A stretch of 64,000 bases of DNA, taken from NCBI GenBank assembly GCA_023898465.1, contig CP060223.1, forward strand, positions 960,001 to 1,024,000, written 5' to 3'. The stretch comes from Candidatus Nomurabacteria bacterium (GTDB lineage Bacteria > Patescibacteriota > Patescibacteriia > HK-STAS-PATE-3). A program made the translations under genes and the position numbers. Shown one piece after another: positions 6,852-25,180 of this stretch; the stretch's first letter is position 1; every line of letters starts with the position of its first letter. The notes under the pieces were generated by a model that worked only from the letters and a program-made list of their open reading frames with translations, searched no databases and was not told where the DNA came from.

Positions 6852-8561
6852 ATGGTAGCTACATCCTCATCTTCCAACACTAGTTCATCTCACTCCATCC
6901 CGATTGCTCCAAAAGAAGTCGAGCAGCGTTTTGATAGAAAAATGGAGCAAATGAAGCAGCGAGAATTAGAGCGTCAGGTGCGCGATGAGGCCATTCGGCG
7001 AGGTTTGGGATATACCACCTTAGTAGGAGTGCCGATTGACCAAGACAGCCTCAAGGCCATACCCCGCGAAACTGCGCTGCAAAGGAAAATGATTTGCTTC
7101 AACCGTAGTCGCGAAGAAATGCGTGTAGCCGTACTTGATCCGAATCAAGAGGGTTTGGATGAGTTGCTGCAAAAATTAAGTGAGGAACAAAACCTGGCGA
7201 TCGGTCTCTACCTTGTTTCGCCAAAAAGTATTCAGGCAGCCTTAACGCAGTATGATACTTTGCCGCAAATTAAACCCCAAGTGAGTGGCGTGCAAGTAAC
7301 AGAAAAAGATTTGAATCGCTTCCGCAAAGAACCAACCCTACTCAAAGACCTGGAGGATCAACTCAATCGCATTCCAGTTACTGATGTGTTGAGTTTATTA
7401 CTCGCTAGTGCAACACAATCCCGAGCAACAGATATTCATATTGAGGCTGAGGAAAATGACGTGAAGATTCGCTTCCGTATTGATGGCATCCTACATACCG
7501 TTGCTACCTTACCAAAAGAGTCATGGAAAAAACTTATTAGCCGTATCAAGATTTTGGCCGGCCTGAAGCTAAACATTGAAGACAAGCCACAGGATGGTCG
7601 CATTACTTTACGACTCAGCGACGATGAAGTTGATATCCGTGTTTCCACCGTACCTACTGCCTATGGCGAGAGCGTGGCCCTTCGTTTACTTCTCGCTTCA
7701 GAGGCTGGACTTACCTTAGACGACCTGGGATTGCGTGGACAAGCCTTCGAGCAGTTGAAGCGAGAAATTAGTCGACCAAATGGCATGATAATTACCACTG
7801 GTCCAACCGGGTCCGGTAAAACCACGACGCTCTATGCTTTCTTAAAGCAGTTAAATCGACCAGAAACAAAAATCCTTACCCTGGAGGATCCGATTGAATA
7901 TAAGCTGGAAGGCATTAATCAGAGCCAAGTGAATCCCGAGGAAGGGTACAATTTTGTGCGCGGATTAAAGCACGCCCTCCGACAAGACCCAGACATTGTT
8001 ATGGTCGGTGAAATTCGTGATTTGGAAACTGCCGAGATTGCTATACAAGCGACACTGACTGGTCACTTAGTGATAAGCACGCTGCATACCAATAATGCGG
8101 CCGGTGCAGTGCCGCGTTTCTTATCGCTTGGCGTGAAGCCATTCTTACTCGCTCCCGCCCTGAATGCAGTTATTGGTCAGCGTCTGGTACGGCGCTTGTG
8201 TCAGGAATGTAAAAAGCCAGCTGAGTTGGATGGTGAGACAAGCCAGCGGATTAAAGAGTATTTAGAAAAAATTCCCGAGGATTCAAAGTTCCGACCAGAC
8301 ATGTCAAAACCGCTTACCTTCTACATCGGCGGCGGCTGTGAAGTCTGCGGCGGCATTGGCTATCAGGGTCGTGTTGGTATCTACGAAGTGATGACCATGA
8401 ACCAAGAGTTGGAAAAGCTAGTACTGGCCGGAAACACGTCTGAATATGATATTGAGGCTAATGCGGTAAAGCACGGCATGATTACCATGGTGCAGGACGG
8501 TTTACTAAAAGCACTCGACGGCATTACTTCAGTAGACGAAGTCTTCCGCGTCGCGGAATAA
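6852..8561 (+). CDS. pilB: Type II secretion / type IV pilus assembly ATPase (GspE/PilB family)
   Basis: Walker A TGPTGSGKTTT, Asp box, Walker B VGEIRD, His box TLHTN, and a C-terminal tetracysteine (CQEC...CEVCGG). Start chosen at the MVATSS ATG. Confidence 0.85.
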   Translation: MVATSSSSNTSSSHSIPIAPKEVEQRFDRKMEQMKQRELERQVRDEAIRRGLGYTTLVGVPIDQDSLKAIPRETALQRKMICFNRSREEMRVAVLDPNQEGLDELLQKLSEEQNLAIGLYLVSPKSIQAALTQYDTLPQIKPQVSGVQVTEKDLNRFRKEPTLLKDLEDQLNRIPVTDVLSLLLASATQSRATDIHIEAEENDVKIRFRIDGILHTVATLPKESWKKLISRIKILAGLKLNIEDKPQDGRITLRLSDDEVDIRVSTVPTAYGESVALRLLLASEAGLTLDDLGLRGQAFEQLKREISRPNGMIITTGPTGSGKTTTLYAFLKQLNRPETKILTLEDPIEYKLEGINQSQVNPEEGYNFVRGLKHALRQDPDIVMVGEIRDLETAEIAIQATLTGHLVISTLHTNNAAGAVPRFLSLGVKPFLLAPALNAVIGQRLVRRLCQECKKPAELDGETSQRIKEYLEKIPEDSKFRPDMSKPLTFYIGGGCEVCGGIGYQGRVGIYEVMTMNQELEKLVLAGNTSEYDIEANAVKHGMITMVQDGLLKALDGITSVDEVFRVAE

Positions 8562-17336: not shown

Positions 17337-17528
17337 CCGCCGGATCCGTTTTTTAAGCCTGTTCGTATATCACCCCCATGGTTGCGATCTGTGAAAGAAC
17401 GTCCTGTTTGGTCGATAAAGTAGCACAGCGCCAGCTAGAGTCAAGTTGTCCTTCACTTGACGGAGAAAGACGTTTTTAGATATAGTGCACGTAGACAGAT
17501 TTTGGTGGCTCTCAAACGGGAGTCACCT

Positions 17529-19655
17529 ATGTTTTTACGCGCATGTATAGTATTGCTCTTTGTCTTTACGCAAAGCGTTCCCTTCTTTCCTGTGACACAG
17601 GCAATTGAAATCCCAACTGTTGTGATAAATGAGCTTATGTGGATGGGTTCATCCGCTTCCTCGGCTGACGAATGGATAGAGCTGCGTAATACTAGCGATC
17701 AACAGATAGATATTTCTGGATGGAAAATGACCAAGAAGAGCGGTGAAGACAACGCGCTCATGTTAACTATTCCAGAAAATCAATTCATTGCCCCACGGGC
17801 ATATTACCTCATTGCGAACTATGCTGATGATGCGACAAATTCACATTTAGCCATAGCACCTGATTTGGTTGAGACCGACGTCGCATTAGTAAACTCGGCC
17901 TTGCAGATTGGGCTTTATACTTCCCAAGATGAACTTATTGACAGTGCGGATGACGGAGTGGGCAAGCCCTTGGCAGGTGAGTACACATCAGGTGAAATAT
18001 GGAAATCAATGGAGCGAGTACGTGAGCCAAGTGATGGAACTAGGCCGGAGGATTGGAAGACCTCAAGCGCTCAAGTGAATTTTGATGCCGCTTCCCCAGA
18101 GTATGGTACGCCAGGGGCAGAGAATAGTAATACTGCGCCAGCGGCAAATGCTGGAGAAGATTTCTCTATCCAGGTCGGTGAAACAGCGACATTTGACGCT
18201 TCACTTTCTGAAGATGCTGACCATGACACACTTAGTTACTCATGGGATTTTGACGACGGCGGAGTTGCGAGTGGGATAACTCCTACGCACGTGTATCAAC
18301 ATGAAGGGGAATACCACGTAGTTCTGATTGTTTCCGATGGGATGCTTACATCGAGTGATGAGGTGCTGGTGAGTGTAAGCTTAGAATCAGTCTTACCAAC
18401 ACCAGAGACTCAAGAGGATAATCCAGGGGAAGAGGAGTCTAGCGATCCTGAATATATGCGGGGTAATGTGCTGCTCAATGAAGTCTTCCCTAATCCAAGT
18501 GGGCGAGATCAAGAAGCAGAGTTTATCGAGCTCTATAATGCGGATGACAAAGCGGTTTCGCTGAGCGGCTGGAAAGTAACCAATGATAAAAGCTCATATC
18601 ACTTTGATGATCAAGTAATTGCACCTGGAGCCTTTCTCTCCATATCATATTCGACGAGTAAAGTCTTGCTGCGCAATAGCGGCGGTGTAGTTCGACTAGT
18701 AAACCCCTTCAATGAAATAGTGAGCGGGTTAGAGTACGGCGTGGCCGAAGAAGCAATGAGCTTTGCTCGAGTGAATGATACGACACATTGGGAATGGACA
18801 AGCCTGCCCACCCCCGGGAGTGAAAATGAGATTGAGCAAGATATTTCTTCTTCAAACACGGAAGTAGAAGGAGATAGCAACGCAATAATTTTAGAAAAGA
18901 CAAACGAGACTAATACAAGCCTTCCAAAAAATATTAAGGTGGCTGAAATTGCCGGACTTGATCCAAAAACCCTTGTGCAAGTTGAAGGTGTGGTGACCGC
19001 CGCGCCAGGCATGTTCTCCGTTTCGTCATTTTGGCTGCAGGATGAGAGTGGGGCAGCCGAGGTTTCATCAACAAATAAACTATTCCCAGAGCTAGAGCTT
19101 GGCAATCTCGTGCGCGTGATTGGTACGGTGTCGAGTGCTGGAGAGGGCTTACGCATAAACCAGCGCAAAGATGAAATTGAAGTAATTGGTGTGAGCGTTG
19201 TAGCTCCTGAGGAATTGCAAAGCGATGATCTTAATGAGGCACTCATTGGTCATCTCGTGAGCGTCCAGGGACAGATAACAAAATCAGCCAAGACAAAACT
19301 CACCTTGCGTGATGAGCAGGGTGAATTGGCCGTCGTCGCCAAGAAAGGCACTGAGCTTGATCTCAGTAGTTTCAGCGTTGATGAGCCCGTGCAGATTCTC
19401 GGCATACTTGGATGGACAAGCGCTGGGCCACAAATTTGGCCAAGGACTATTGAAGATATTCAAATTGCCGGAGAGGTTTTAGGCGAAGCAACAAGCTTAG
19501 AAGCTCAAACTCCACTTACTGACTCGACAGCCATCGTGAATGATGATCGAAAAGTATTTCCCACCTGGTTAGTTATGGTAATCATCGGTGTCATGTTAAG
19601 TCTGGGAGCGTGGTGGTACTGGAAACATCGCGTCGATACCACTTCCCATGTCTAA
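17529..19655 (+). CDS. Large surface protein: 2x lamin-tail domain (LTD) + PKD domain + OB-fold-like region + C-terminal TM anchor
   Basis: Signal/TM N-terminus. LTD motifs (INELMW..DEWIELRN.., LLNEVFPNP..EFIELYN). PKD signature (LSYSWDFDDG...HVY..G.Y). C-terminal TM WLVMVIIGVMLSLGAWWYW. Confidence 0.7.
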   Translation: MFLRACIVLLFVFTQSVPFFPVTQAIEIPTVVINELMWMGSSASSADEWIELRNTSDQQIDISGWKMTKKSGEDNALMLTIPENQFIAPRAYYLIANYADDATNSHLAIAPDLVETDVALVNSALQIGLYTSQDELIDSADDGVGKPLAGEYTSGEIWKSMERVREPSDGTRPEDWKTSSAQVNFDAASPEYGTPGAENSNTAPAANAGEDFSIQVGETATFDASLSEDADHDTLSYSWDFDDGGVASGITPTHVYQHEGEYHVVLIVSDGMLTSSDEVLVSVSLESVLPTPETQEDNPGEEESSDPEYMRGNVLLNEVFPNPSGRDQEAEFIELYNADDKAVSLSGWKVTNDKSSYHFDDQVIAPGAFLSISYSTSKVLLRNSGGVVRLVNPFNEIVSGLEYGVAEEAMSFARVNDTTHWEWTSLPTPGSENEIEQDISSSNTEVEGDSNAIILEKTNETNTSLPKNIKVAEIAGLDPKTLVQVEGVVTAAPGMFSVSSFWLQDESGAAEVSSTNKLFPELELGNLVRVIGTVSSAGEGLRINQRKDEIEVIGVSVVAPEELQSDDLNEALIGHLVSVQGQITKSAKTKLTLRDEQGELAVVAKKGTELDLSSFSVDEPVQILGILGWTSAGPQIWPRTIEDIQIAGEVLGEATSLEAQTPLTDSTAIVNDDRKVFPTWLVMVIIGVMLSLGAWWYWKHRVDTTSHV

Positions 19656-19702
19656 AAATACTTGCCGTAAAGGAAAAAATATGCTATACTTCCCTTACAA
19701 AA

Positions 19703-21529
19703 ATGCAAAAGAAAAAAATAGACAAGCGATCATTGTCATGGCAGCTTCTGACACTACTAGGCGTTTTTCTTTTTGTTGTTGTAGCGCAAAAGAGCTTAGC
19801 TGATACGGCGTACTATGTTGATCAAAACAATGTAAGTTGTTCAGATGCGGGACCTGGCTCACCTTCTGTTCCTTTCTGTAGTTTAGTGCCCACACAGGGA
19901 GTAGTGGCTCCAGGAGATACGGTATATATAGCTGACGGGCGCTATGGTGATCCCCTCAGCTTTACTGTTTCAGGGACTGAGGGTAATCCTATTCGCTACA
20001 TCGCTCAAGGCGAGAACGTTGTCCTTGGTGTTTTTGAAGACTTGGTAGATGAAAATTTTACCAAAACTCCCGGGTACACCAATGTGTATGAAATAGCTTT
20101 ACCCATAAGCGATCCTGACCATCGTTTGTTCCAAACCTATTTCCCCGACATCCTGGTAGACGATCCGGACAATGATTCATACTTTACCATGAAAGATGCG
20201 GATGGTCCTTTAGGACTCACTGAGACGGATGATTTGACCCTTGTCGATGAAAACGAGGGGTCCTGGATGATTAGTGGTGAGACTATTTATGCGCATGCTT
20301 ATGGCAGCCGTGTTCCAAGCACTGCATCAACAGATTTTGTGTATACCTACGATAAATGGCAATTAGGAATTGGGGCATCAATTTCCTATCTTGTGTTTGA
20401 CGGTTTCCAATTTCACTACAACGGAGAGTATAACTTTGTCGTAAACGGCACGCACAATACATTTTATAATATTAAAAAAACAAGTGGCTTTGAAATACGA
20501 GGAAGTGATAACTACGCTGAAGGGATAACCGCGAGCCACGAAATAACTCGGAATGCTCCTAGTGGGAGCTTTTACAGTGGCGCAAGTGGTTACGGTTTGT
20601 TTATCCGAGGTACAAATAACACCTTAAAAGATATTCACGTATTTCATAATTGGAATAATATTGGAGTGAATGGAAGCAACATCACTATTCAAAGCGGCGA
20701 GATTCATGGCTCACCAAATCATTGTTTTCAACCTCAACACAATGATGGATTGACCATACAAAATCTAAAATCTTGGAATTGCCAAGATGGCTATGGATAT
20801 ATCTCGGGTGATGTTACTAATGCAGTTTTTGAGAATGGGACCGTGCAGTCGAGTATTCTTTTTCAAGACCTAATTGTTGCTGCACATTATCCAAATAGCA
20901 ATCTTACTTTTCGGAATATGCTATTTAATGACTGTAAGATTATTACCGGAGGATATGGCGTTAACGAGTGTAGCTATGAAAGCACAGTCACAATAGAAAA
21001 CTCGATTTTTTTCTGTGATAATATTTCGAATTTTGAGATTCAGCATTGCGTTGCACCAGGAAATCTTGAGACCTATTCCTCGATCGCTGCATATCAGGCA
21101 AATTGTGGAGACAACTGTATGACCTTAAATAACGTTCAGTTGATCGATACAAACCATACTAACGTTATTCAGGGTGGTAAGTGGCCAGGTGAAACACCGC
21201 TCTGGGATATTCATATTCCAAATGAAAGTAGTGTAGCCTTTGATGCCGGATCTTCATTAGCTAGCTCAAGTATTGACTACGAAGGCGACACTCGACCACA
21301 AGGGCTTAGATACGACATTGGCGCTGACGAATTACCAGTTGTAGATTCAGGAGGAGAAGAATGTACACCTGATTGGCAATGTGACGCTTGGGCATCGTGC
21401 AGCAATGGCAATCAAACGCGAACTTGCCATGATAGTAATAGCTGTGGCACTGAGAGTGGACGACCGAGTCAGAGCAGATCCTGCGACTCCTATGTACCGG
21501 GCAGAATAACTAACTTACGCGTCGAGTAA
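19703..21529 (+). CDS. Surface right-handed beta-helix (pectate-lyase-fold) protein with a C-terminal Cys-rich module
   Basis: N-terminal TM. Beta-helix repeats with many N/G/I rungs. C-terminal CTPDWQCDAWASCSNGNQTRTCHDSNSCGTESGRPSQSRSC. Confidence 0.6.
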   Translation: MQKKKIDKRSLSWQLLTLLGVFLFVVVAQKSLADTAYYVDQNNVSCSDAGPGSPSVPFCSLVPTQGVVAPGDTVYIADGRYGDPLSFTVSGTEGNPIRYIAQGENVVLGVFEDLVDENFTKTPGYTNVYEIALPISDPDHRLFQTYFPDILVDDPDNDSYFTMKDADGPLGLTETDDLTLVDENEGSWMISGETIYAHAYGSRVPSTASTDFVYTYDKWQLGIGASISYLVFDGFQFHYNGEYNFVVNGTHNTFYNIKKTSGFEIRGSDNYAEGITASHEITRNAPSGSFYSGASGYGLFIRGTNNTLKDIHVFHNWNNIGVNGSNITIQSGEIHGSPNHCFQPQHNDGLTIQNLKSWNCQDGYGYISGDVTNAVFENGTVQSSILFQDLIVAAHYPNSNLTFRNMLFNDCKIITGGYGVNECSYESTVTIENSIFFCDNISNFEIQHCVAPGNLETYSSIAAYQANCGDNCMTLNNVQLIDTNHTNVIQGGKWPGETPLWDIHIPNESSVAFDAGSSLASSSIDYEGDTRPQGLRYDIGADELPVVDSGGEECTPDWQCDAWASCSNGNQTRTCHDSNSCGTESGRPSQSRSCDSYVPGRITNLRVE

Positions 21530-21530
21530 T

Positions 21531-23024
21531 ATGCCCCAAACCGAACAAATCGTTGCGACAAAGACATGGTTGCAAGTGTCTATCAGTAGCACTCTAGCCT
21601 CTTTTATACTCATTTCTTTAACCGGTTTGAGTATGGGGCTTATTTCTTTTCAATCAGATATTTTTCCCATTTTCCAACAGCAAGAAGCGACGAGTCAATA
21701 CGATAATAGCAATTCAGCAAAATTAATATGGACGGCGCCAGGTGATGATGGATATACCGGACAAGCGAGCGGCTATGATATTCGCTATGCTCAGACTCCC
21801 ATTACATCCGCAAGCTGGAGTTCAGCCACTCAGGTAGCCAACACACTGCAACCAAAAGTTGCTGGGGCATCTGAATCGTTTCGAGTGACCGGCCTCCTGT
21901 CCGCCAAAACCTACTATTTTGCAGTGAGGGCGTATGATGAGGTGGGTAACTACGGAGAGATTTCGAATGTACCAAGTATAACGACAGCCTGCTATGTTTC
22001 GTGGTCCTGCGATGAGTGGTCAGCTTGTGTGGACGGTCAGCAGGTGAGGACTTGTAGTGATACAAATAGCTGTGCTTCAGATGAGGGTAGACCAGAGGAA
22101 AGCCGAGCGTGCGGAGCGGGGGGTCCATCACCTGAGCCGATTATTGTGGGTACACATACTGGATATCCGCCACACCTACGGGTGCTAGATAGCAACGGCG
22201 GTCTCATGAGTCAGTTTTATGCCTACGCAGAAAATTTCCGTAACGGGGTAAACTTTTCTTTTGGTGATGTTGATGGTGATGGCAAAAAAGATATCGTCGT
22301 AGGAACCATTGGAAAATCAGCCGCGCATATCCGAATCTTTCGCCAGGATGGAAGCCTCCTTTCGCAATTTTTTGCCTACCCAGCGCAGTGGCGCATAGGA
22401 GTGAGTGTGAGTACCGGTGATCTCGATGGCGACGGAAAGGATGAGATTATTGTTTTACCGAATACTCGCTCGCCTGCCCATGTGCGAATTTTTTCTTACA
22501 CCGGACAATTACAAAATCAATTTTATGTTTTCCCTTCCCAGTGGAGACTGGAATTAAATCTAGAGAGTGGAGATGTAAACGGAGATGGGAAAGACGAGAT
22601 TGTTGTTTCTACTACTGAGGGTTATACGCCGCATGTCCGTATTTTTTCTGGTACTGGTAATTTAGTCGGACAATTTTTTGCCTATGATTTAGGATATCGT
22701 GGTGGGGTCCCGATCGCCACCGGTGACACAAATGGGGACGGGAAGGATGAAATAATTACTGGCACAGGGCCAGGCTATCGACCGCATGTCCGTATACTGG
22801 ATTTAGATGGATCAGTCGTTGGTCAGTTTAATGCCTATGATCCAAATTATCGTGGCGGACTAACACTCTCCTCGACTGATGTGGATGGTGATGGGGTTGA
22901 TGAGGTTATCGTCGGTACTATGCCAGGCTATCCTGCTCATGTGCGAGCGCTTACCAATACCGGCGACCTCGTTAGCCAGTTTTATGCCTATCCGCCTGAA
23001 TGGAAGATTGGAGTGAAGTTGTAA
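21531..23024 (+). CDS. Surface protein: N-terminal TM + FN3-like + Cys-rich module + 8x FG-GAP/VCBS-type repeats
   Basis: Starts 2 nt after the previous stop. Cys module YVSWSCDEWSACVDGQQVRTCSDTNSCASDEGRPEESRAC. Repeats GDV(D/N)GDGKDEI.VGT...HVRI. Confidence 0.65.
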   Translation: MPQTEQIVATKTWLQVSISSTLASFILISLTGLSMGLISFQSDIFPIFQQQEATSQYDNSNSAKLIWTAPGDDGYTGQASGYDIRYAQTPITSASWSSATQVANTLQPKVAGASESFRVTGLLSAKTYYFAVRAYDEVGNYGEISNVPSITTACYVSWSCDEWSACVDGQQVRTCSDTNSCASDEGRPEESRACGAGGPSPEPIIVGTHTGYPPHLRVLDSNGGLMSQFYAYAENFRNGVNFSFGDVDGDGKKDIVVGTIGKSAAHIRIFRQDGSLLSQFFAYPAQWRIGVSVSTGDLDGDGKDEIIVLPNTRSPAHVRIFSYTGQLQNQFYVFPSQWRLELNLESGDVNGDGKDEIVVSTTEGYTPHVRIFSGTGNLVGQFFAYDLGYRGGVPIATGDTNGDGKDEIITGTGPGYRPHVRILDLDGSVVGQFNAYDPNYRGGLTLSSTDVDGDGVDEVIVGTMPGYPAHVRALTNTGDLVSQFYAYPPEWKIGVKL

Positions 23025-23055
23025 TCTAGTTGCAAAGAAAAGCCAGTCTGTATAG

Positions 23056-23211
23056 CTACAGACCGGCTCGGTGGGCGCGCCTTTGCAGGAGGAGATAAGG
23101 AACCAGGAAGAAAAGCGTGCCAAAGGTGAGACCAATGAGCATGCCCACACCAGTGAGCAAGAGGCCACAAAGGCCAAAAACGGCACAGGTCAACAATTTC
23201 AGAATTTTCAT
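23056..23211 (-). CDS. Possible 51-aa small membrane peptide (coordinates approximate)
   Basis: GGGAGGGAAAC Shine-Dalgarno before a minus-strand ATG. Hydrophobic MKILKLLTCAVFGLCGLLLTGVGMLIGLTFGTLFF... My by-eye reading of this stretch disagrees by 1 nt with the provided ORF track, so this call is low confidence. Confidence 0.25.
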   Translation of the reverse strand: MKILKLLTCAVFGLCGLLLTGVGMLIGLTFGTLFFLVPYLLLQRRAHRAGL

Positions 23212-23294: not shown

Positions 23295-24314
23295 ATGCGC
23301 GCAAAATACTTCTTAGGAGCCCTTATTCTCACCTTCGGGATTGTTGCTTTAGCGTGGTACGTGGGTGATCCTGTCCAATCGGTTGGAGCGGAGGATAAAC
23401 AGACCAAGGAAGCTATTTCACGAGGCTTGGATTTTTTAGCACAAAGCCATCATCCTTATACTTTTGATGATGCGTATTTGCAGTATCTCTACCCAGACGA
23501 GAATCTCTCGTGTCCTTTACCTAATTGTCAGCTTAGTTATCGTCTGCTTGATGCATACTTCGCCGTTGCCATGCTTCGTGATCGATTAAGTGCAAAAGAA
23601 AAGCAGAGCATCCAAGACGTGCTTGAGGAACAAGAGGCAGTTTTTGAAATCCTCTTGCCTACATGGCGCACTGCACCGATCGAAGGCACCTTACGAAGTG
23701 AAGCGGCAAGTAGCGAGAGTGTAGCCTTGGATACCTATTGTCTTCTCGGCTATCTCACTAAAGATAAAGCAATGGCAGAGCACGCATTGGAATATCTCTC
23801 ACCATCAGGCGAGTGGTTTGCAGCTGATCATTTTACTAGTGATCAGTGGCGGAATATTGCTGATGAAACATGGTGCATTCGTTTGCTTGCTGTAACCGAA
23901 ACCTATCCGGAGCAGTTTGCCAACATGGTTGAAACAAAAACTATTGAGGTTCGCGGTTTTCTCCAATCGCAAAAACCGGTCGCTGAAAAAATAGCCGCAG
24001 TCTATCATGTATTGCTTATGATACAAGAGCCGGGAATTACCCAATCAGCCGAACAAATTCCCGTTTTACAAGAGACAGCTGCCGCACTTATTGCGAGCGC
24101 GAGCACACAACTTGATGCGGTGACAATGGCAAACAGTCTTGAAATGTTAACCCTAAGTCACTTTTCCACTGACTCGTATGTGAGTGGCTTACGCGAAGGT
24201 CTCTTGCGATCGCAAAGCACGGACGGTGCGTGGCGTTACGGCGATGACAATCAGTATGCCGTGTTTGCTACCCTTCGCAGTTTATTAGGATTAACCAGTG
24301 ATCGAGTGGAATGA
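23295..24314 (+). CDS. Secreted/anchored hypothetical protein (alpha-helical)
   Basis: 339 aa. N-terminal signal/TM MRAKYFLGALILTFGIVALAW. Confidence 0.45.
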   Translation: MRAKYFLGALILTFGIVALAWYVGDPVQSVGAEDKQTKEAISRGLDFLAQSHHPYTFDDAYLQYLYPDENLSCPLPNCQLSYRLLDAYFAVAMLRDRLSAKEKQSIQDVLEEQEAVFEILLPTWRTAPIEGTLRSEAASSESVALDTYCLLGYLTKDKAMAEHALEYLSPSGEWFAADHFTSDQWRNIADETWCIRLLAVTETYPEQFANMVETKTIEVRGFLQSQKPVAEKIAAVYHVLLMIQEPGITQSAEQIPVLQETAAALIASASTQLDAVTMANSLEMLTLSHFSTDSYVSGLREGLLRSQSTDGAWRYGDDNQYAVFATLRSLLGLTSDRVE

Positions 24315-25180
24315 ATATGAAAAAGATATTTTTACTCGATGTATTTTTTCTCCTAGCACTGCAGTATATTTTTTTTCATGGCCTAGGGGCAACGTATCGC
24401 TGGGTAAACTCCAGCCTCGTACATATTCCCATCTTCCTGGCTTGGTTTAATATACAAATGCTCTTTCTCTGTCTTGCTACACTGGTTTTGGTAATGGTGG
24501 GACTTGCTCTACGCGGAAAATCTTTTGTTTGGTTAGGATTCGAGGCACTTCCTAAAAATACAGTATCAAGTATAGGGTTGTTTATTGCATTGAGTTTTCC
24601 CATTGCGCTCCTTGGTCGATTAATCGTATCTGATTTTGATGCATGGTATGCCAATGGAGCTGGCCTGCTGAGCTGGGCAGGTGTTGGCGCCTTTGTCGTA
24701 ACCTTAGTTTTTTCAGTGTTGAAAGAGGAATTATTGCAACGCTTCATGCAAAGGATGCTCATGGAGCACTTGAGCAACTTGAGTATTGCGATTGTTATGG
24801 CAAGCAGCTTTGCCTTGGCGCACTATTTTACTCCCGTGGCCTATGGCGTCAGCTCAGTGGTGAGTGTAGCGTTTATTGCTTTCCTTCTGGCTGTGCTTTA
24901 TCTCCGTACGAAAAATATACTTGTCACATTCTTTTTTCATTTTTGCTTTAATCTCATTATCACTATTCAGATTAGTTTGCACGCCCGGGGCGATGGCGTA
25001 GGAGAATTCCTGCTTTGGAGTCTTTGGGGATTAGCCTTTCTCTGGACCCTTAAGCCAGCCTGGAAAGCATTACGTGAAAGTTTATCTTTTTCCTCAAGCG
25101 ATCTCCAGCCAAAAACACTTGTATTTCTTACACTCTTTGGATTTCTCCTCCCTCTGCTCTACACCTTTCTGCTGAACTAA
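24311..25180 (+). CDS. CPBP-family intramembrane metalloprotease (CAAX protease / Abi-like)
   Basis: EExxxR (KEELLQRF), FxxxH (FALAHYF) and HxxxN (HFCFNL) motifs. Polytopic. Four-nt overlap with the upstream gene. Confidence 0.7.
   Translation: MNMKKIFLLDVFFLLALQYIFFHGLGATYRWVNSSLVHIPIFLAWFNIQMLFLCLATLVLVMVGLALRGKSFVWLGFEALPKNTVSSIGLFIALSFPIALLGRLIVSDFDAWYANGAGLLSWAGVGAFVVTLVFSVLKEELLQRFMQRMLMEHLSNLSIAIVMASSFALAHYFTPVAYGVSSVVSVAFIAFLLAVLYLRTKNILVTFFFHFCFNLIITIQISLHARGDGVGEFLLWSLWGLAFLWTLKPAWKALRESLSFSSSDLQPKTLVFLTLFGFLLPLLYTFLLN

What the first reader, a model, noticed from the sequence alone, without database searches (positions are those of the whole stretch)
17529..23024. Three-gene cluster of large surface proteins (LTD/PKD, beta-helix, FG-GAP); the last two share a ~40-aa Cys-rich module
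Consecutive, co-directional genes with almost no spacing encode three proteins. The first is a 708-aa protein with two lamin-tail domains, a PKD domain and a C-terminal TM anchor. The second is an N-anchored pectate-lyase-like beta-helix protein. The third is an N-anchored protein with an FN3-like domain and eight FG-GAP/VCBS repeats (GDVDGDGKDEI.VGT). The second ends, and the third begins after FN3, with the same module, C-x3-W-x-C-x2-W-x2-C-x3-G-x-Q-x-R-T-C-x-D-x-N-S-C-x3-(E/S)-G-R-P-x2-S-R-x-C: CTPDWQCDAWASCSNGNQTRTCHDSNSCGTESGRPSQSRSC versus CYVSWSCDEWSACVDGQQVRTCSDTNSCASDEGRPEESRAC. This looks like a shared disulfide-rich interaction or attachment domain. The cluster is a candidate host-attachment or adhesion apparatus typical of episymbiotic ultra-small bacteria. 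PilB, the type IV pilus ATPase, lies upstream at 6852-8561.
Basis: partly seen in the sequence, partly recalled or inferred. Interest (0 to 1): 0.55.

Follow-up and report, generated by a model that had tools for sequence, protein, structure and literature searches.

The report
Surface enzyme with docking tail beside anchor
Three neighbouring surface-protein genes of an ultra-small (Candidatus Nomurabacteria) bacterium are real, their shared 41-residue cysteine module belongs to a very large uncatalogued domain family with a thrombospondin-repeat-like fold, and the second protein ends in a short conserved tail that probably docks it onto the third.

Summary
The three ORFs exist. The module is shared (21/41 identical; BLASTP E 2e-14) and occurs only twice in the window.

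Corrections:
- g1 also carries an OB-fold.
- g2 probably has a cleavable signal peptide, and its beta-helix assignment is weak.
- g3 has six propeller blades, not eight repeats.

The module is not special to this cluster. A profile finds 8,485 protein clusters, with up to 17 tandem copies per protein. Pfam and NCBIfam do not cover it. The predicted fold resembles thrombospondin type-1 repeats, but only weakly, and there is no significant sequence similarity. It most likely acts as a spacer.

The new point is g2's last 9 residues (GRITNLRVE). They match the canonical first strand of an FN3 domain. The same tail (P-x-x-[VI]-x-[DN]-L plus 1-4 residues, then stop) ends unrelated secreted proteins, mostly beta-helix types. 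These genes repeatedly lie directly upstream of genes encoding a membrane-anchored FN3 that lacks this strand. This is seen in CPR, Zixibacteria and Ignavibacteria.

Best reading, inferred and not shown: g2 docks on g3 through this tail, much as a dockerin docks on a scaffoldin. There is no evidence linking g1 or PilB to this pair.

The parts
17457..17486 (+). Promoter-like site upstream of g1. Its -35 hexamer contains the TTG at 17457, so ATG 17529 is the likelier start.
   Evidence: 10 of 12 consensus positions. This is a consensus match only, and such matches are not enriched over shuffled sequence.
17529..19655 (+). g1, a 708-aa surface protein. Domains: signal peptide; LTD (17613-17948); PKD (18129-18377); second LTD (about 18465-18830); OB-fold (18975-19160); C-terminal TM anchor (19563-19622). 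No module and no tail.
   Evidence: An orthologue (E 4e-98) lies 5 kb from a tail protein in L092.
19662..19690 (+). Promoter-like site with an extended -10 element, directly upstream of the g2 start.
   Evidence: 9 of 12; consensus match only.
19703..21529 (+). g2, a 608-aa secreted protein. Domains: signal peptide (19703-19801); right-handed beta-helix-like body; choice-of-anchor Q motif (21212-21331); module; tail.
21362..21484 (+). Six-Cys module of g2 (aa 554-594).
   Evidence: 63 bits against the family profile.
21485..21526 (+). C-terminal tail of g2, DSYVP-GRITNLRVE, followed by a TAA stop. It matches the FN3 strand-A motif P-x-x-[VI]-x-[DN]-L.
21531..23024 (+). g3, a 497-aa membrane-anchored protein. 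Domains: TM (21585-21650); FN3 without the canonical strand A (21705-21983); module; six-bladed FG-GAP propeller (22140-23021).
21990..22112 (+). Six-Cys module of g3 (aa 154-194).
   Evidence: 65 bits; modelled together with the rest of g3.
23040..23069 (.). Hairpin with a 13-bp stem, 16 nt after the g3 stop. It may mark the end of the g2-g3 transcription unit.
   Evidence: It was reported on the minus strand; terminator function on the plus strand is inferred.

Best explanation
g2 and g3 form a two-part surface display unit.

g3 is the anchor. It sits in the membrane through an N-terminal TM helix. Outward from the membrane it presents an FN3 domain that starts at strand B, one spacer module and a six-bladed integrin-type FG-GAP propeller, which is a likely Ca2+-dependent ligand- or glycan-binding head.

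g2 is exported through a cleavable signal peptide. It carries a polysaccharide-lyase-like or glycosidase-like beta-helix body. Where related proteins carry a dockerin or nothing, g2 ends with one spacer module plus a 9-residue tail that has the sequence of FN3 strand A.

The tail is proposed to dock g2 onto g3, most simply by supplying the missing strand of g3's FN3 in trans. The 1-nt gene spacing would favour coupled synthesis of the two proteins.

The shared 41-aa module is a disulfide-stabilised spacer with a thrombospondin-repeat-like fold, from a very large uncatalogued family. It is not itself the docking element.

g1 is a separately anchored protein that probably binds nucleic acid.

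Shown here: the domain content, the size of the module family, the conserved tail, and its recurring position upstream of genes encoding an anchored FN3 that lacks strand A.

Inferred: physical docking, strand donation, cleavage of the signal peptide, and any role in host contact.
For: Tail conservation:
- The tail is conserved up to the stop codon in proteins whose bodies are unrelated. Examples: L001 ..CDSTSPNAISDLETE*; three genes in L003; P0272 ..NQITDLAVS*; P0277; P0214, P0228, P0241 and P0244.
- All three stop codons are used.
- In the sample, when the tail motif follows the last module the protein ends within 5 residues: 26 of 27 entries, duplicates included.
- The tail occurs in 22 of 5,280 ORF fragments of the fetched loci.

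Gene neighbourhood:
- Nine tail genes lie directly upstream of a gene whose product begins with a TM or signal segment followed by a WTAPGDD-type FN3 without the strand-A motif: window, L001, L003, L004, L005, L011, L043, L088 and L091. Four more tail genes stand in tandem arrays leading to such a gene.
- Among loci chosen through the anchor gene, 5 of 10 have a tail gene immediately upstream.
- Among loci chosen through the tail, the g2 body or the module, 2 of 9 that could be evaluated have the anchor gene overlapping the stop codon.

Complementary FN3:
- 154 of 221 other WTAPGDD-type FN3 domains carry the motif. Only 1 of 14 g3-like FN3 domains does, and that one is in the fused L010 protein.
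- The Pfam fn3 match in g3 starts at profile position 12.
- In the AlphaFold model of g3 the first strand is residues 62-68, and residues 1-56 have pLDDT below 50.

Fusion evidence:
- In L010 one ORF holds head, module, three FN3, two modules and FG-GAP repeats.

The anchor slot:
- A choice-of-anchor Q motif precedes the module in g2.
- The g2 homologue P0273 has a dockerin at that position.
- All tail proteins examined have signal-peptide-like N-termini, and none has a C-terminal TM.

The module as a spacer:
- 8,485 clusters, with up to 17 tandem copies per protein.
- Of 725 unique module instances, 635 keep all six Cys, 79 lack Cys2 and Cys4 together and only 1 lacks Cys2 alone. This indicates a Cys2-Cys4 disulfide.
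Against:
- Many N-terminal FN3 domains without the strand-A motif have no tail gene upstream (34 of 43). Starting at strand B may simply be how this FN3 subtype begins when it is N-terminal.
- Several g3-like proteins have a strand-like segment between the TM helix and strand B (for example PAVITLATA) that could serve as their own strand A.
- The low confidence for g3 residues 1-56 may reflect a poorly aligned N-terminal region in a 26-sequence alignment.
- Tail genes in L083, L084, L085, L086, L089, L090 and L092 have no anchor gene in the DNA held.
- Loci with three tail genes have only one anchor gene (L003, L004).
- The loci from the genome collection were selected for containing this FN3 type, which biases the adjacency counts.
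Confidence: 0.45

Rival explanations
1. There is no physical coupling. These are three independent surface proteins that share a spacer domain popular in this lineage. The tail is a leftover of the linker and first strand of an FN3, retained after an ancestral head-module-FN3-propeller gene split.
For: - The module is generic (8,485 clusters).
- A fused form exists (L010).
- Many N-terminal FN3 domains start at strand B without any tail gene nearby.
- Tail genes also occur away from anchor genes.
Against: - A useless remnant should decay. Instead the motif and the exact length (usually three residues after the conserved Leu) are kept in proteins with unrelated bodies, in tandem paralogues and in three phyla, with all three stop codons.
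- In L003 and L004 the first two tail genes are followed by another head gene, not by the FN3 gene, so a single fission event cannot explain them.
Confidence: 0.28
2. The shared Cys-rich module is itself the interaction or attachment domain, pairing g2 with g3 module-to-module or binding a host ligand.
For: - Both partners carry the module in the window, L001, L003, L088 and L091.
- Eukaryotic thrombospondin repeats, the nearest fold, are ligand-binding modules (their function is from general knowledge).
Against: - Tail genes without any module still precede anchor genes (two in L004, plus L005, L011 and L043).
- The Zixibacteria and Ignavibacteria partner genes (L011, L043) gave no module match; none was found in any locus L011-L082 apart from one weak hit in L047.
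- Arrays of up to 17 copies, with varied partner domains such as CARDB, S-layer and PG_binding_1, fit a spacer better than a specific pairing domain.
Confidence: 0.15
3. The tail is a C-terminal sorting or processing signal read by an enzyme. One candidate is the Rce1-like CPBP intramembrane protease encoded two genes downstream. The enzyme would cleave the tail or attach the protein to the envelope.
For: - The distance to the C-terminus is fixed at three residues after the conserved Leu, which is reminiscent of CAAX-type processing.
- An Rce1-like gene lies at 24311-25180.
- The tail occupies the slot after a choice-of-anchor domain.
Against: - The CPBP gene and its neighbour have no homologue in any of the other loci.
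- The tail has no Cys and no TM segment of the kind found in known sorting signals.
- No NCBIfam sorting-signal model matches the C-terminal 66 residues.
Confidence: 0.08

Closest known systems
Thrombospondin type-1 repeat (TSR; Pfam TSP_1 PF00090)
   Same: - About 45 residues with six Cys.
- Conserved Trp residues before a Cys and a G-x-Q-x-R-x-C stretch (W9 98%, W14 94%, R24 91%).
- A predicted elongated fold of short strands.
- The top three Foldseek hits are complement TSRs.
   Different: - There is no Pfam match even at E 10.
- hhalign against the TSP1 repeats gives a probability of 2.9%.
- The Trp spacing is W-x-C-x-x-W rather than W-x-x-W.
- There is one conserved Arg rather than an R-x-R ladder.
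- The cysteine of the TSR C-S-x-T-C-G motif is absent.
- A Cys2-Cys4 disulfide is inferred.
- The family is prokaryotic and often forms long tandem arrays.
Cohesin-dockerin display of carbohydrate-active enzymes (cellulosome)
   Same: - Secreted beta-helix or glycosidase-like enzymes carry a short C-terminal docking element.
- A separately encoded, cell-anchored partner gene lies nearby.
- Several enzyme genes can precede one anchor gene (L003, L004).
- The g2 homologue P0273 carries a dockerin at the same position.
   Different: - Neither g2 nor g3 has a dockerin or cohesin profile match.
- The proposed docking element is a 9-residue strand, not a Ca2+-binding domain of about 70 residues.
- The proposed receptor is an FN3 domain.
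- Binding has not been shown.
Donor-strand complementation in chaperone-usher and type V pili, and split Ig-like domains such as SpyTag/SpyCatcher
   Same: - An Ig-like sandwich lacking one edge strand would be completed by a strand from another polypeptide.
- In L011 and L043 single proteins carry both an FN3 lacking strand A and a C-terminal tail, as a polymerising subunit would.
   Different: - The donated strand would be the N-terminal strand A of an FN3, carried on the donor's C-terminus.
- No chaperone, usher or isopeptide chemistry is indicated.
- The idea is wholly inferred from sequence.
Integrin alpha-type FG-GAP beta-propellers (Psathyrella velutina lectin 2bwr, integrin alpha-V and alpha-5, Vibrio cholerae Bap1)
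   Same: - FG-GAP repeats with DxDGDG Ca2+-loop motifs.
- The best structural matches are 2bwr (E 4e-8), integrin alpha subunits and Bap1.
   Different: Six blades are predicted, against seven in integrins and the lectin. The ligand is unknown.
Extracellular nucleases with LTD or OB-fold domains (Shewanella ExeM; Bacillus subtilis YhcR, the latter from general knowledge)
   Same: g1 combines LTD domains with an extracellular OB-fold nucleic-acid-binding domain and a membrane anchor. It has a weak match to the ExeM N-terminal region.
   Different: No nuclease domain was detected in g1. The ExeM match scores 20 bits against a cut-off of 1300.

Membership tests
Thrombospondin type-1 repeat (TSP_1, PF00090) | Significant match to the family's sequence profile | tested here: not met
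   - No Pfam family matched at E up to 10 for either module.
- None matched in proteins with 5-10 copies.
- hhalign against the three TSP1 repeats gave probability 2.9%.
- A profile search of PDB sequences found no TSR.
Thrombospondin type-1 repeat (TSP_1, PF00090) | Elongated three-stranded fold | tested here: inconclusive
   - The model has pLDDT 83 and short strands.
- The top three Foldseek hits are TSRs at E about 1.
Thrombospondin type-1 repeat (TSP_1, PF00090) | W-x-x-W Trp ladder stacked on an R-x-R ladder, and the C-S-x-T-C-G motif | tested here: not met
   The consensus from 725 instances is C-x3-W-x-C-x2-W-S-x-C-x2-G-x-Q-T-R-T-C. It has one conserved Arg and no second Cys before the Gly.
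Thrombospondin type-1 repeat (TSP_1, PF00090) | Disulfide pattern C1-C5, C2-C6, C3-C4 (from general knowledge of TSP1) | tested here: inconclusive
   Only one pair could be inferred. Cys2 and Cys4 are lost together in 79 of 725 instances, and Cys2 is lost alone in 1. Model coordinates could not be read.
Fibronectin type III (fn3, PF00041), in g3 | Profile match above the curated cut-off | tested here: met
   29.5 bits against a cut-off of 25, covering aa 59-146.
Fibronectin type III (fn3, PF00041), in g3 | Complete seven-strand sandwich including strand A | tested here: not met
   - The profile match starts at position 12 of 84.
- The first modelled strand is residues 62-68, and residues 1-56 have pLDDT below 50.
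- The strand-A motif is absent in 13 of 14 g3-like FN3 domains.
Caveat: a divergent strand A of g3's own is not excluded.
FG-GAP / integrin-type beta-propeller, in g3 | FG-GAP repeat profile matches with Ca2+-loop motifs | tested here: met
   - PF01839 scores 81.5 bits in five stretches, and PF13517 scores 74.1 bits.
- Five D-x-[DN]-G-D-G motifs lie exactly 51 aa apart.
FG-GAP / integrin-type beta-propeller, in g3 | Seven blades | tested here: not met
   The model shows 24 strands, which is six blades, with pLDDT above 90.
Right-handed parallel beta-helix polysaccharide lyases and glycosidases (Pel9A-like PF22842, Beta_helix PF13229), in g2 | Profile match above the curated cut-off | tested here: inconclusive
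   - g2 scores 21.6 bits against a cut-off of 25.2, over aa 33-85 only.
- Homologues reach E 6.3e-6 for Pel9A-like and 3.2e-5 for Beta_helix.
- The family profile hits beta-helix enzymes 3vst, 5olq and 6qps at E 6.7e-5 to 0.027.
- No structure of g2 was predicted.
Choice-of-anchor Q domain (NF041518), in g2 | Profile match above the curated cut-off, located before the C-terminal anchoring region | tested here: met
   27.4 bits against a cut-off of 25, at aa 504-543, directly before the module and tail.
Cohesin-dockerin system | Dockerin on the enzyme and cohesin on the scaffold | tested here: not met
   Neither g2 nor g3 has a dockerin or cohesin match. Only the homologue P0273 has a weak Dockerin_1 match (E 2.2e-4). 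The comparison is functional only.
Donor-strand complementation systems | Physical insertion of a strand from one subunit into the incomplete fold of another | not testable with these tools
   No multimer prediction was available. The evidence is limited to complementary sequence features and gene adjacency.
Lamin-tail, PKD and OB-fold domains, in g1 | Profile matches above the curated cut-offs | tested here: met
   - LTD scores 110.4 bits in two stretches.
- PKD_4 scores 80.5 bits.
- tRNA_anti-codon OB-fold scores 35.6 bits against a cut-off of 27.

The most novel reading that the evidence does not exclude
A previously undescribed way of attaching bacterial surface proteins: a split FN3 domain. 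Secreted proteins end in a tag of about 9 residues that is FN3 strand A (P-x-x-[VI]-x-[DN]-L-x-x-x-COOH). A partner protein starts with a membrane anchor or signal segment followed by an FN3 lacking that strand, and the tag completes the fold in trans. The system would span CPR bacteria, Zixibacteria and Ignavibacteria. It would let several enzyme heads share one anchor. Where one protein carries both parts (L011, L043), it could build head-to-tail fibres without a chaperone-usher machine.
Probability: 0.3. Interest if true: 0.8.

Novelty: new variant of a known kind. Interest (0 to 1): 0.6.

Why it matters
CPR bacteria depend on contact with other cells, yet how they assemble their surface machinery is largely unknown.

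First, this work defines a very large six-Cys domain family that Pfam and NCBIfam do not cover: at least 8,485 clusters at 50% identity. Its predicted fold is that of thrombospondin repeats, a module usually regarded as eukaryotic.

Second, it points to a simple, testable docking rule. A short C-terminal FN3 strand would tether secreted polysaccharide-active enzymes to an integrin-like anchor protein.

If the rule holds, enzyme-anchor pairs could be predicted from sequence in uncultured lineages. It would also provide a small natural peptide-and-domain pair of possible use as a protein-ligation or display tag.

If it does not hold, the cluster is an ordinary set of surface proteins that share a common spacer.

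Tried and rejected
- Word-indexed homologue search with the two-module alignment found nothing, because the query was too short for the index. It was replaced by a search with whole g3 and a profile search of all cluster representatives.
- My first DNA pattern for the tail had two extra N and matched nothing, not even the window. The corrected, relaxed pattern found 7 metagenome loci.
- Sequence-level membership in the TSR family was rejected: Pfam, a PDB profile search and hhalign were all negative.
- The AlphaFold-database fold library was unavailable.
- A link between the tail and the downstream Rce1-like protease was rejected as a conserved feature. Neither that gene nor its neighbour has a homologue in any other locus.
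- The idea that only anchor proteins with an adjacent tail gene lack a strand-A-like segment was not borne out. L088 and L091 have strand-like segments after the TM helix, and loci without tail genes also lack the motif.
- A recent DNA duplication as the source of the shared module was rejected; the coding DNA is 54% identical.
- Frameshift or read-through fusion of g2 and g3 is considered unlikely. It would place a 56-residue insertion containing a TM segment inside the FN3, and in L003 and L004 tail genes are followed by other head genes.
- Cluster look-ups returned no organism names for the module proteins.
- Literature searches found nothing linking thrombospondin repeats, dockerins or FG-GAP proteins of this kind to CPR or DPANN organisms.

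Full report
**Observation.** The window holds three co-directional ORFs.
- g1: 17529-19655, 708 aa.
- g2: 19703-21529, 608 aa.
- g3: 21531-23024, 497 aa.
- The gaps are 47 nt and 1 nt, the second reading TAA T ATG.
- g2 is 100% identical to a hypothetical protein of a Candidatus Nomurabacteria MAG found on a 1.08-Mb contig.

**Domain content (Pfam and NCBIfam).**
- g1 has two lamin-tail domains, a PKD domain and a C-terminal hydrophobic anchor.
- g2 has only a sub-threshold Pel9A-like beta-helix match at its N-terminal cap, plus a choice-of-anchor Q motif (aa 504-543, above the cut-off).
- A profile of g2 and its five homologues hits the beta-helix enzymes GH120 xylosidase 3vst (6.7e-5), rhamnogalacturonan lyase 5olq (1.6e-3) and a PL6 lyase (0.027). 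Individual homologues match Beta_helix and Chondroitinase B. The beta-helix reading is plausible but not proven.
- The g2 N-terminus (KKK..KR, a hydrophobic core, then ..SLA/DT) looks like a cleavable signal peptide rather than an anchor. This is read from the sequence; no predictor was run.
- g3 has a TM segment, an FN3 domain and FG-GAP repeats. Five DxDGDG loops lie exactly 51 aa apart.
- The AlphaFold model of g3 (pLDDT 84.8) shows 24 strands, which is six blades, not eight repeats. Its nearest solved structures are the Psathyrella lectin, integrin alpha propellers and Bap1.

**The shared module is real.** The two copies are 21/41 identical. BLASTP gives 44% identity over 57 aa, E 2e-14. 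The motif occurs nowhere else in the six frames of the window. The coding DNA is only 54% identical, so this is not a recent duplication.

**What the module is.**
- Neither Pfam nor NCBIfam matches it, even at E 10.
- Among the 120 best homologues of g3, 27 carry one to four copies between the FN3 and the propeller.
- A 44-instance profile searched against 1.84 billion representative proteins finds 8,485 proteins at E up to 1e-3 and 3,580 at E up to 1e-10, with up to 17 tandem copies.
- Ten of the top hits have no Pfam coverage of the module region. Their partner domains include CARDB, an archaeal-type S-layer domain and PG_binding_1.
- Across 725 unique instances, 635 keep all six Cys, 79 lack Cys2 and Cys4 together and only one lacks Cys2 alone. 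This indicates a Cys2-Cys4 disulfide.

**Fold of the module.**
- The AlphaFold model (pLDDT 83) has short strands.
- The top three Foldseek hits are complement TSRs at E about 1.
- hhalign against the three TSP1 repeats aligns only W-S-x-C...G-x-Q-x-R, with probability 2.9%. I had typed that sequence from memory and checked it against PDB entry 7yyk.
- I therefore call the module TSR-like in fold and do not file it in the TSR family. Its wide use in arrays fits a rigid spacer.

**The tail.**
- In the closest relative locus (L001), the gene directly before the g3 orthologue encodes a 1,225-aa protein. Its body is unrelated to g2, yet it aligns with g2 over the last 59 residues right up to the stop..CDSTSP-NAISDLETE* against ..CDSYVP-GRITNLRVE*.
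- L003 has three consecutive such genes before its g3-like gene.
- The same ending is seen in the g2 orthologue P0272, in the beta-helix protein P0277, and in P0214, P0228, P0241 and P0244.
- All three stop codons are used.
- When the motif P-x-x-[VI]-x-[DN]-L follows the last module, the protein ends within 5 residues in 26 of 27 sampled entries, duplicates included.
- A DNA pattern for module plus tail plus stop retrieved 7 more loci from JGI metagenomes. In two of them (L088, L091) a g3-like gene overlaps the stop codon.
- The tail also occurs without any module: twice in L004, and in L005, L011 (Zixibacteria) and L043 (Ignavibacteria). In each of these loci it leads, directly or (for the first of the two L004 genes) through the next tail gene, to a gene whose product starts with a TM or signal segment followed by a WTAPGDD-type FN3.
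- Overall the tail is present in 22 of 5,280 ORF fragments. Nine tail genes sit immediately upstream of such a gene, and four more lie in tandem arrays that lead to one.

**What the tail resembles.**
- It is the canonical start of this FN3 subtype, for example DNTPPAGITNLAVT..SWTAPGDD inside L010.
- 154 of 221 other FN3 domains of this subtype carry the motif. Only 1 of 14 g3-like FN3 domains does, and that one lies in the fused L010 protein.
- In g3 the Pfam match starts at profile position 12. The model's first strand is residues 62-68.
- In L010 one ORF contains head, module, three FN3, two modules and FG-GAP repeats, which is a natural fusion of the two parts.
- The heads of tail proteins are mostly beta-helix types (Pel9A-like, Beta_helix, Chondroitinase B, DUF1565, DUF5123), often followed by a He_PIG or Big_9 Ig domain.
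- All tail proteins examined have signal-peptide-like N-termini.
- The g2 homologue P0273 has a dockerin in the position of the module and tail.

**Interpretation.**
- The most economical reading is that g3 is a membrane anchor and g2 is a secreted enzyme-like head. The head would be tethered to the anchor by its C-terminal tail, possibly by donating strand A to the anchor's FN3. The module would serve as a spacer in both proteins.
- This works like cohesin-dockerin display or donor-strand complementation, but the cluster belongs to neither family.
- Points against:
  - Docking was not modelled.
  - 34 of 43 N-terminal FN3 domains lacking the motif have no tail gene upstream.
  - Some g3-like proteins have a strand-like segment after the TM helix.
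  - Several tail genes have no anchor gene in the DNA held.
  - The genome loci were selected for this FN3 type.
- Rival readings are gene fission leaving a remnant, module-to-module pairing, and a processing signal. They are weighed separately in the Rival explanations section.

**Context.**
- A promoter-like site lies before g1, another lies before g2, and a 13-bp hairpin follows g3. These are consensus matches only.
- A PilB-like ATPase is present 9 kb upstream, but unrelated genes on the other strand lie between it and the cluster.
- An orthologue of g1 lies near a tail protein and an FG-GAP protein in one other genome (L092), but not in the remaining loci. Its link to the pair is weak.
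- No paper in the searched library connects thrombospondin repeats or dockerins with CPR or DPANN surface proteins.

**Verdict.** The module is an uncatalogued but widespread spacer with a TSR-like fold. The conserved FN3-strand tail and its recurring position before genes for an anchored FN3 lacking that strand are the notable result, and they are directly testable.

Noticed in passing
window 18975-19160 (g1 aa 483-544): g1 carries an extracellular OB-fold nucleic-acid-binding domain and weak DUF5689 similarity, but no nuclease domain. It may capture DNA or RNA at the cell surface. An orthologue (E 4e-98) lies 5 kb from a tail protein in L092.
   Followed up: partly
window 23295-24314 and 24311-25180: A 339-aa protein has no Pfam match. 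It has an N-terminal hydrophobic segment and a Q-x-x-D-G-x-W-like motif near its C-terminus. Its gene overlaps by 4 nt the gene of an Rce1-like CPBP intramembrane protease. Neither protein has a homologue in the other fetched loci.
   Followed up: partly
L011 4608-5108 and 5112-5864; L043 9845-10999 and 11252-12595: In a Zixibacteria MAG and an Ignavibacteria MAG, single proteins combine a signal peptide, an FN3 starting at strand B and the C-terminal strand-A tail. Each is followed by another gene for an FN3 starting at strand B. Such proteins could in principle chain head-to-tail.
   Followed up: partly
L010 1436-6793: A 1,786-aa ORF fuses a glycosidase-like head (DUF4434, 3-keto-disaccharide hydrolase) with a module, three FN3 domains, two modules and FG-GAP repeats. 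This is the fused counterpart of the split g2/g3 arrangement.
   Followed up: partly
P0273 (homologue of g2), C-terminus: This 34%-identical homologue of the g2 body ends in dockerin-like repeats (Pfam Dockerin_1, E 2.2e-4) in place of the module and tail.
   Followed up: partly
g3-like proteins, first ~20 residues (window 21531-21590 and homologues P0003, P0008, P0013, P0022, P0026): The short segment before the TM helix shows a recurring alternating pattern (for example KTEIAIKTKV, TEVQLEVKER, TLIATETQVK). Its role is unknown.
   Followed up: no
window 20001-22000: G+C content drops to 0.43 over the g2 body. The window is mostly 0.44-0.51, and the region just upstream is 0.52.
   Followed up: no
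L003, L004, L006, L010, L018 (record titles): Several MAGs that carry full-length g3 homologues typical of Patescibacteria are titled 'uncultured Gammaproteobacteria'. The labels may be wrong.
   Followed up: no
L007 and L084 (contigs JACRFO010000096 and JACRFO010000126; L084 is from assembly GCA_016217865.1): A Kerfeldbacteria MAG (both contigs carry the JACRFO01 accession prefix) encodes a g3-like anchor on one contig and a beta-helix protein with module and tail (P0277) on another. The two parts therefore need not be adjacent.
   Followed up: partly
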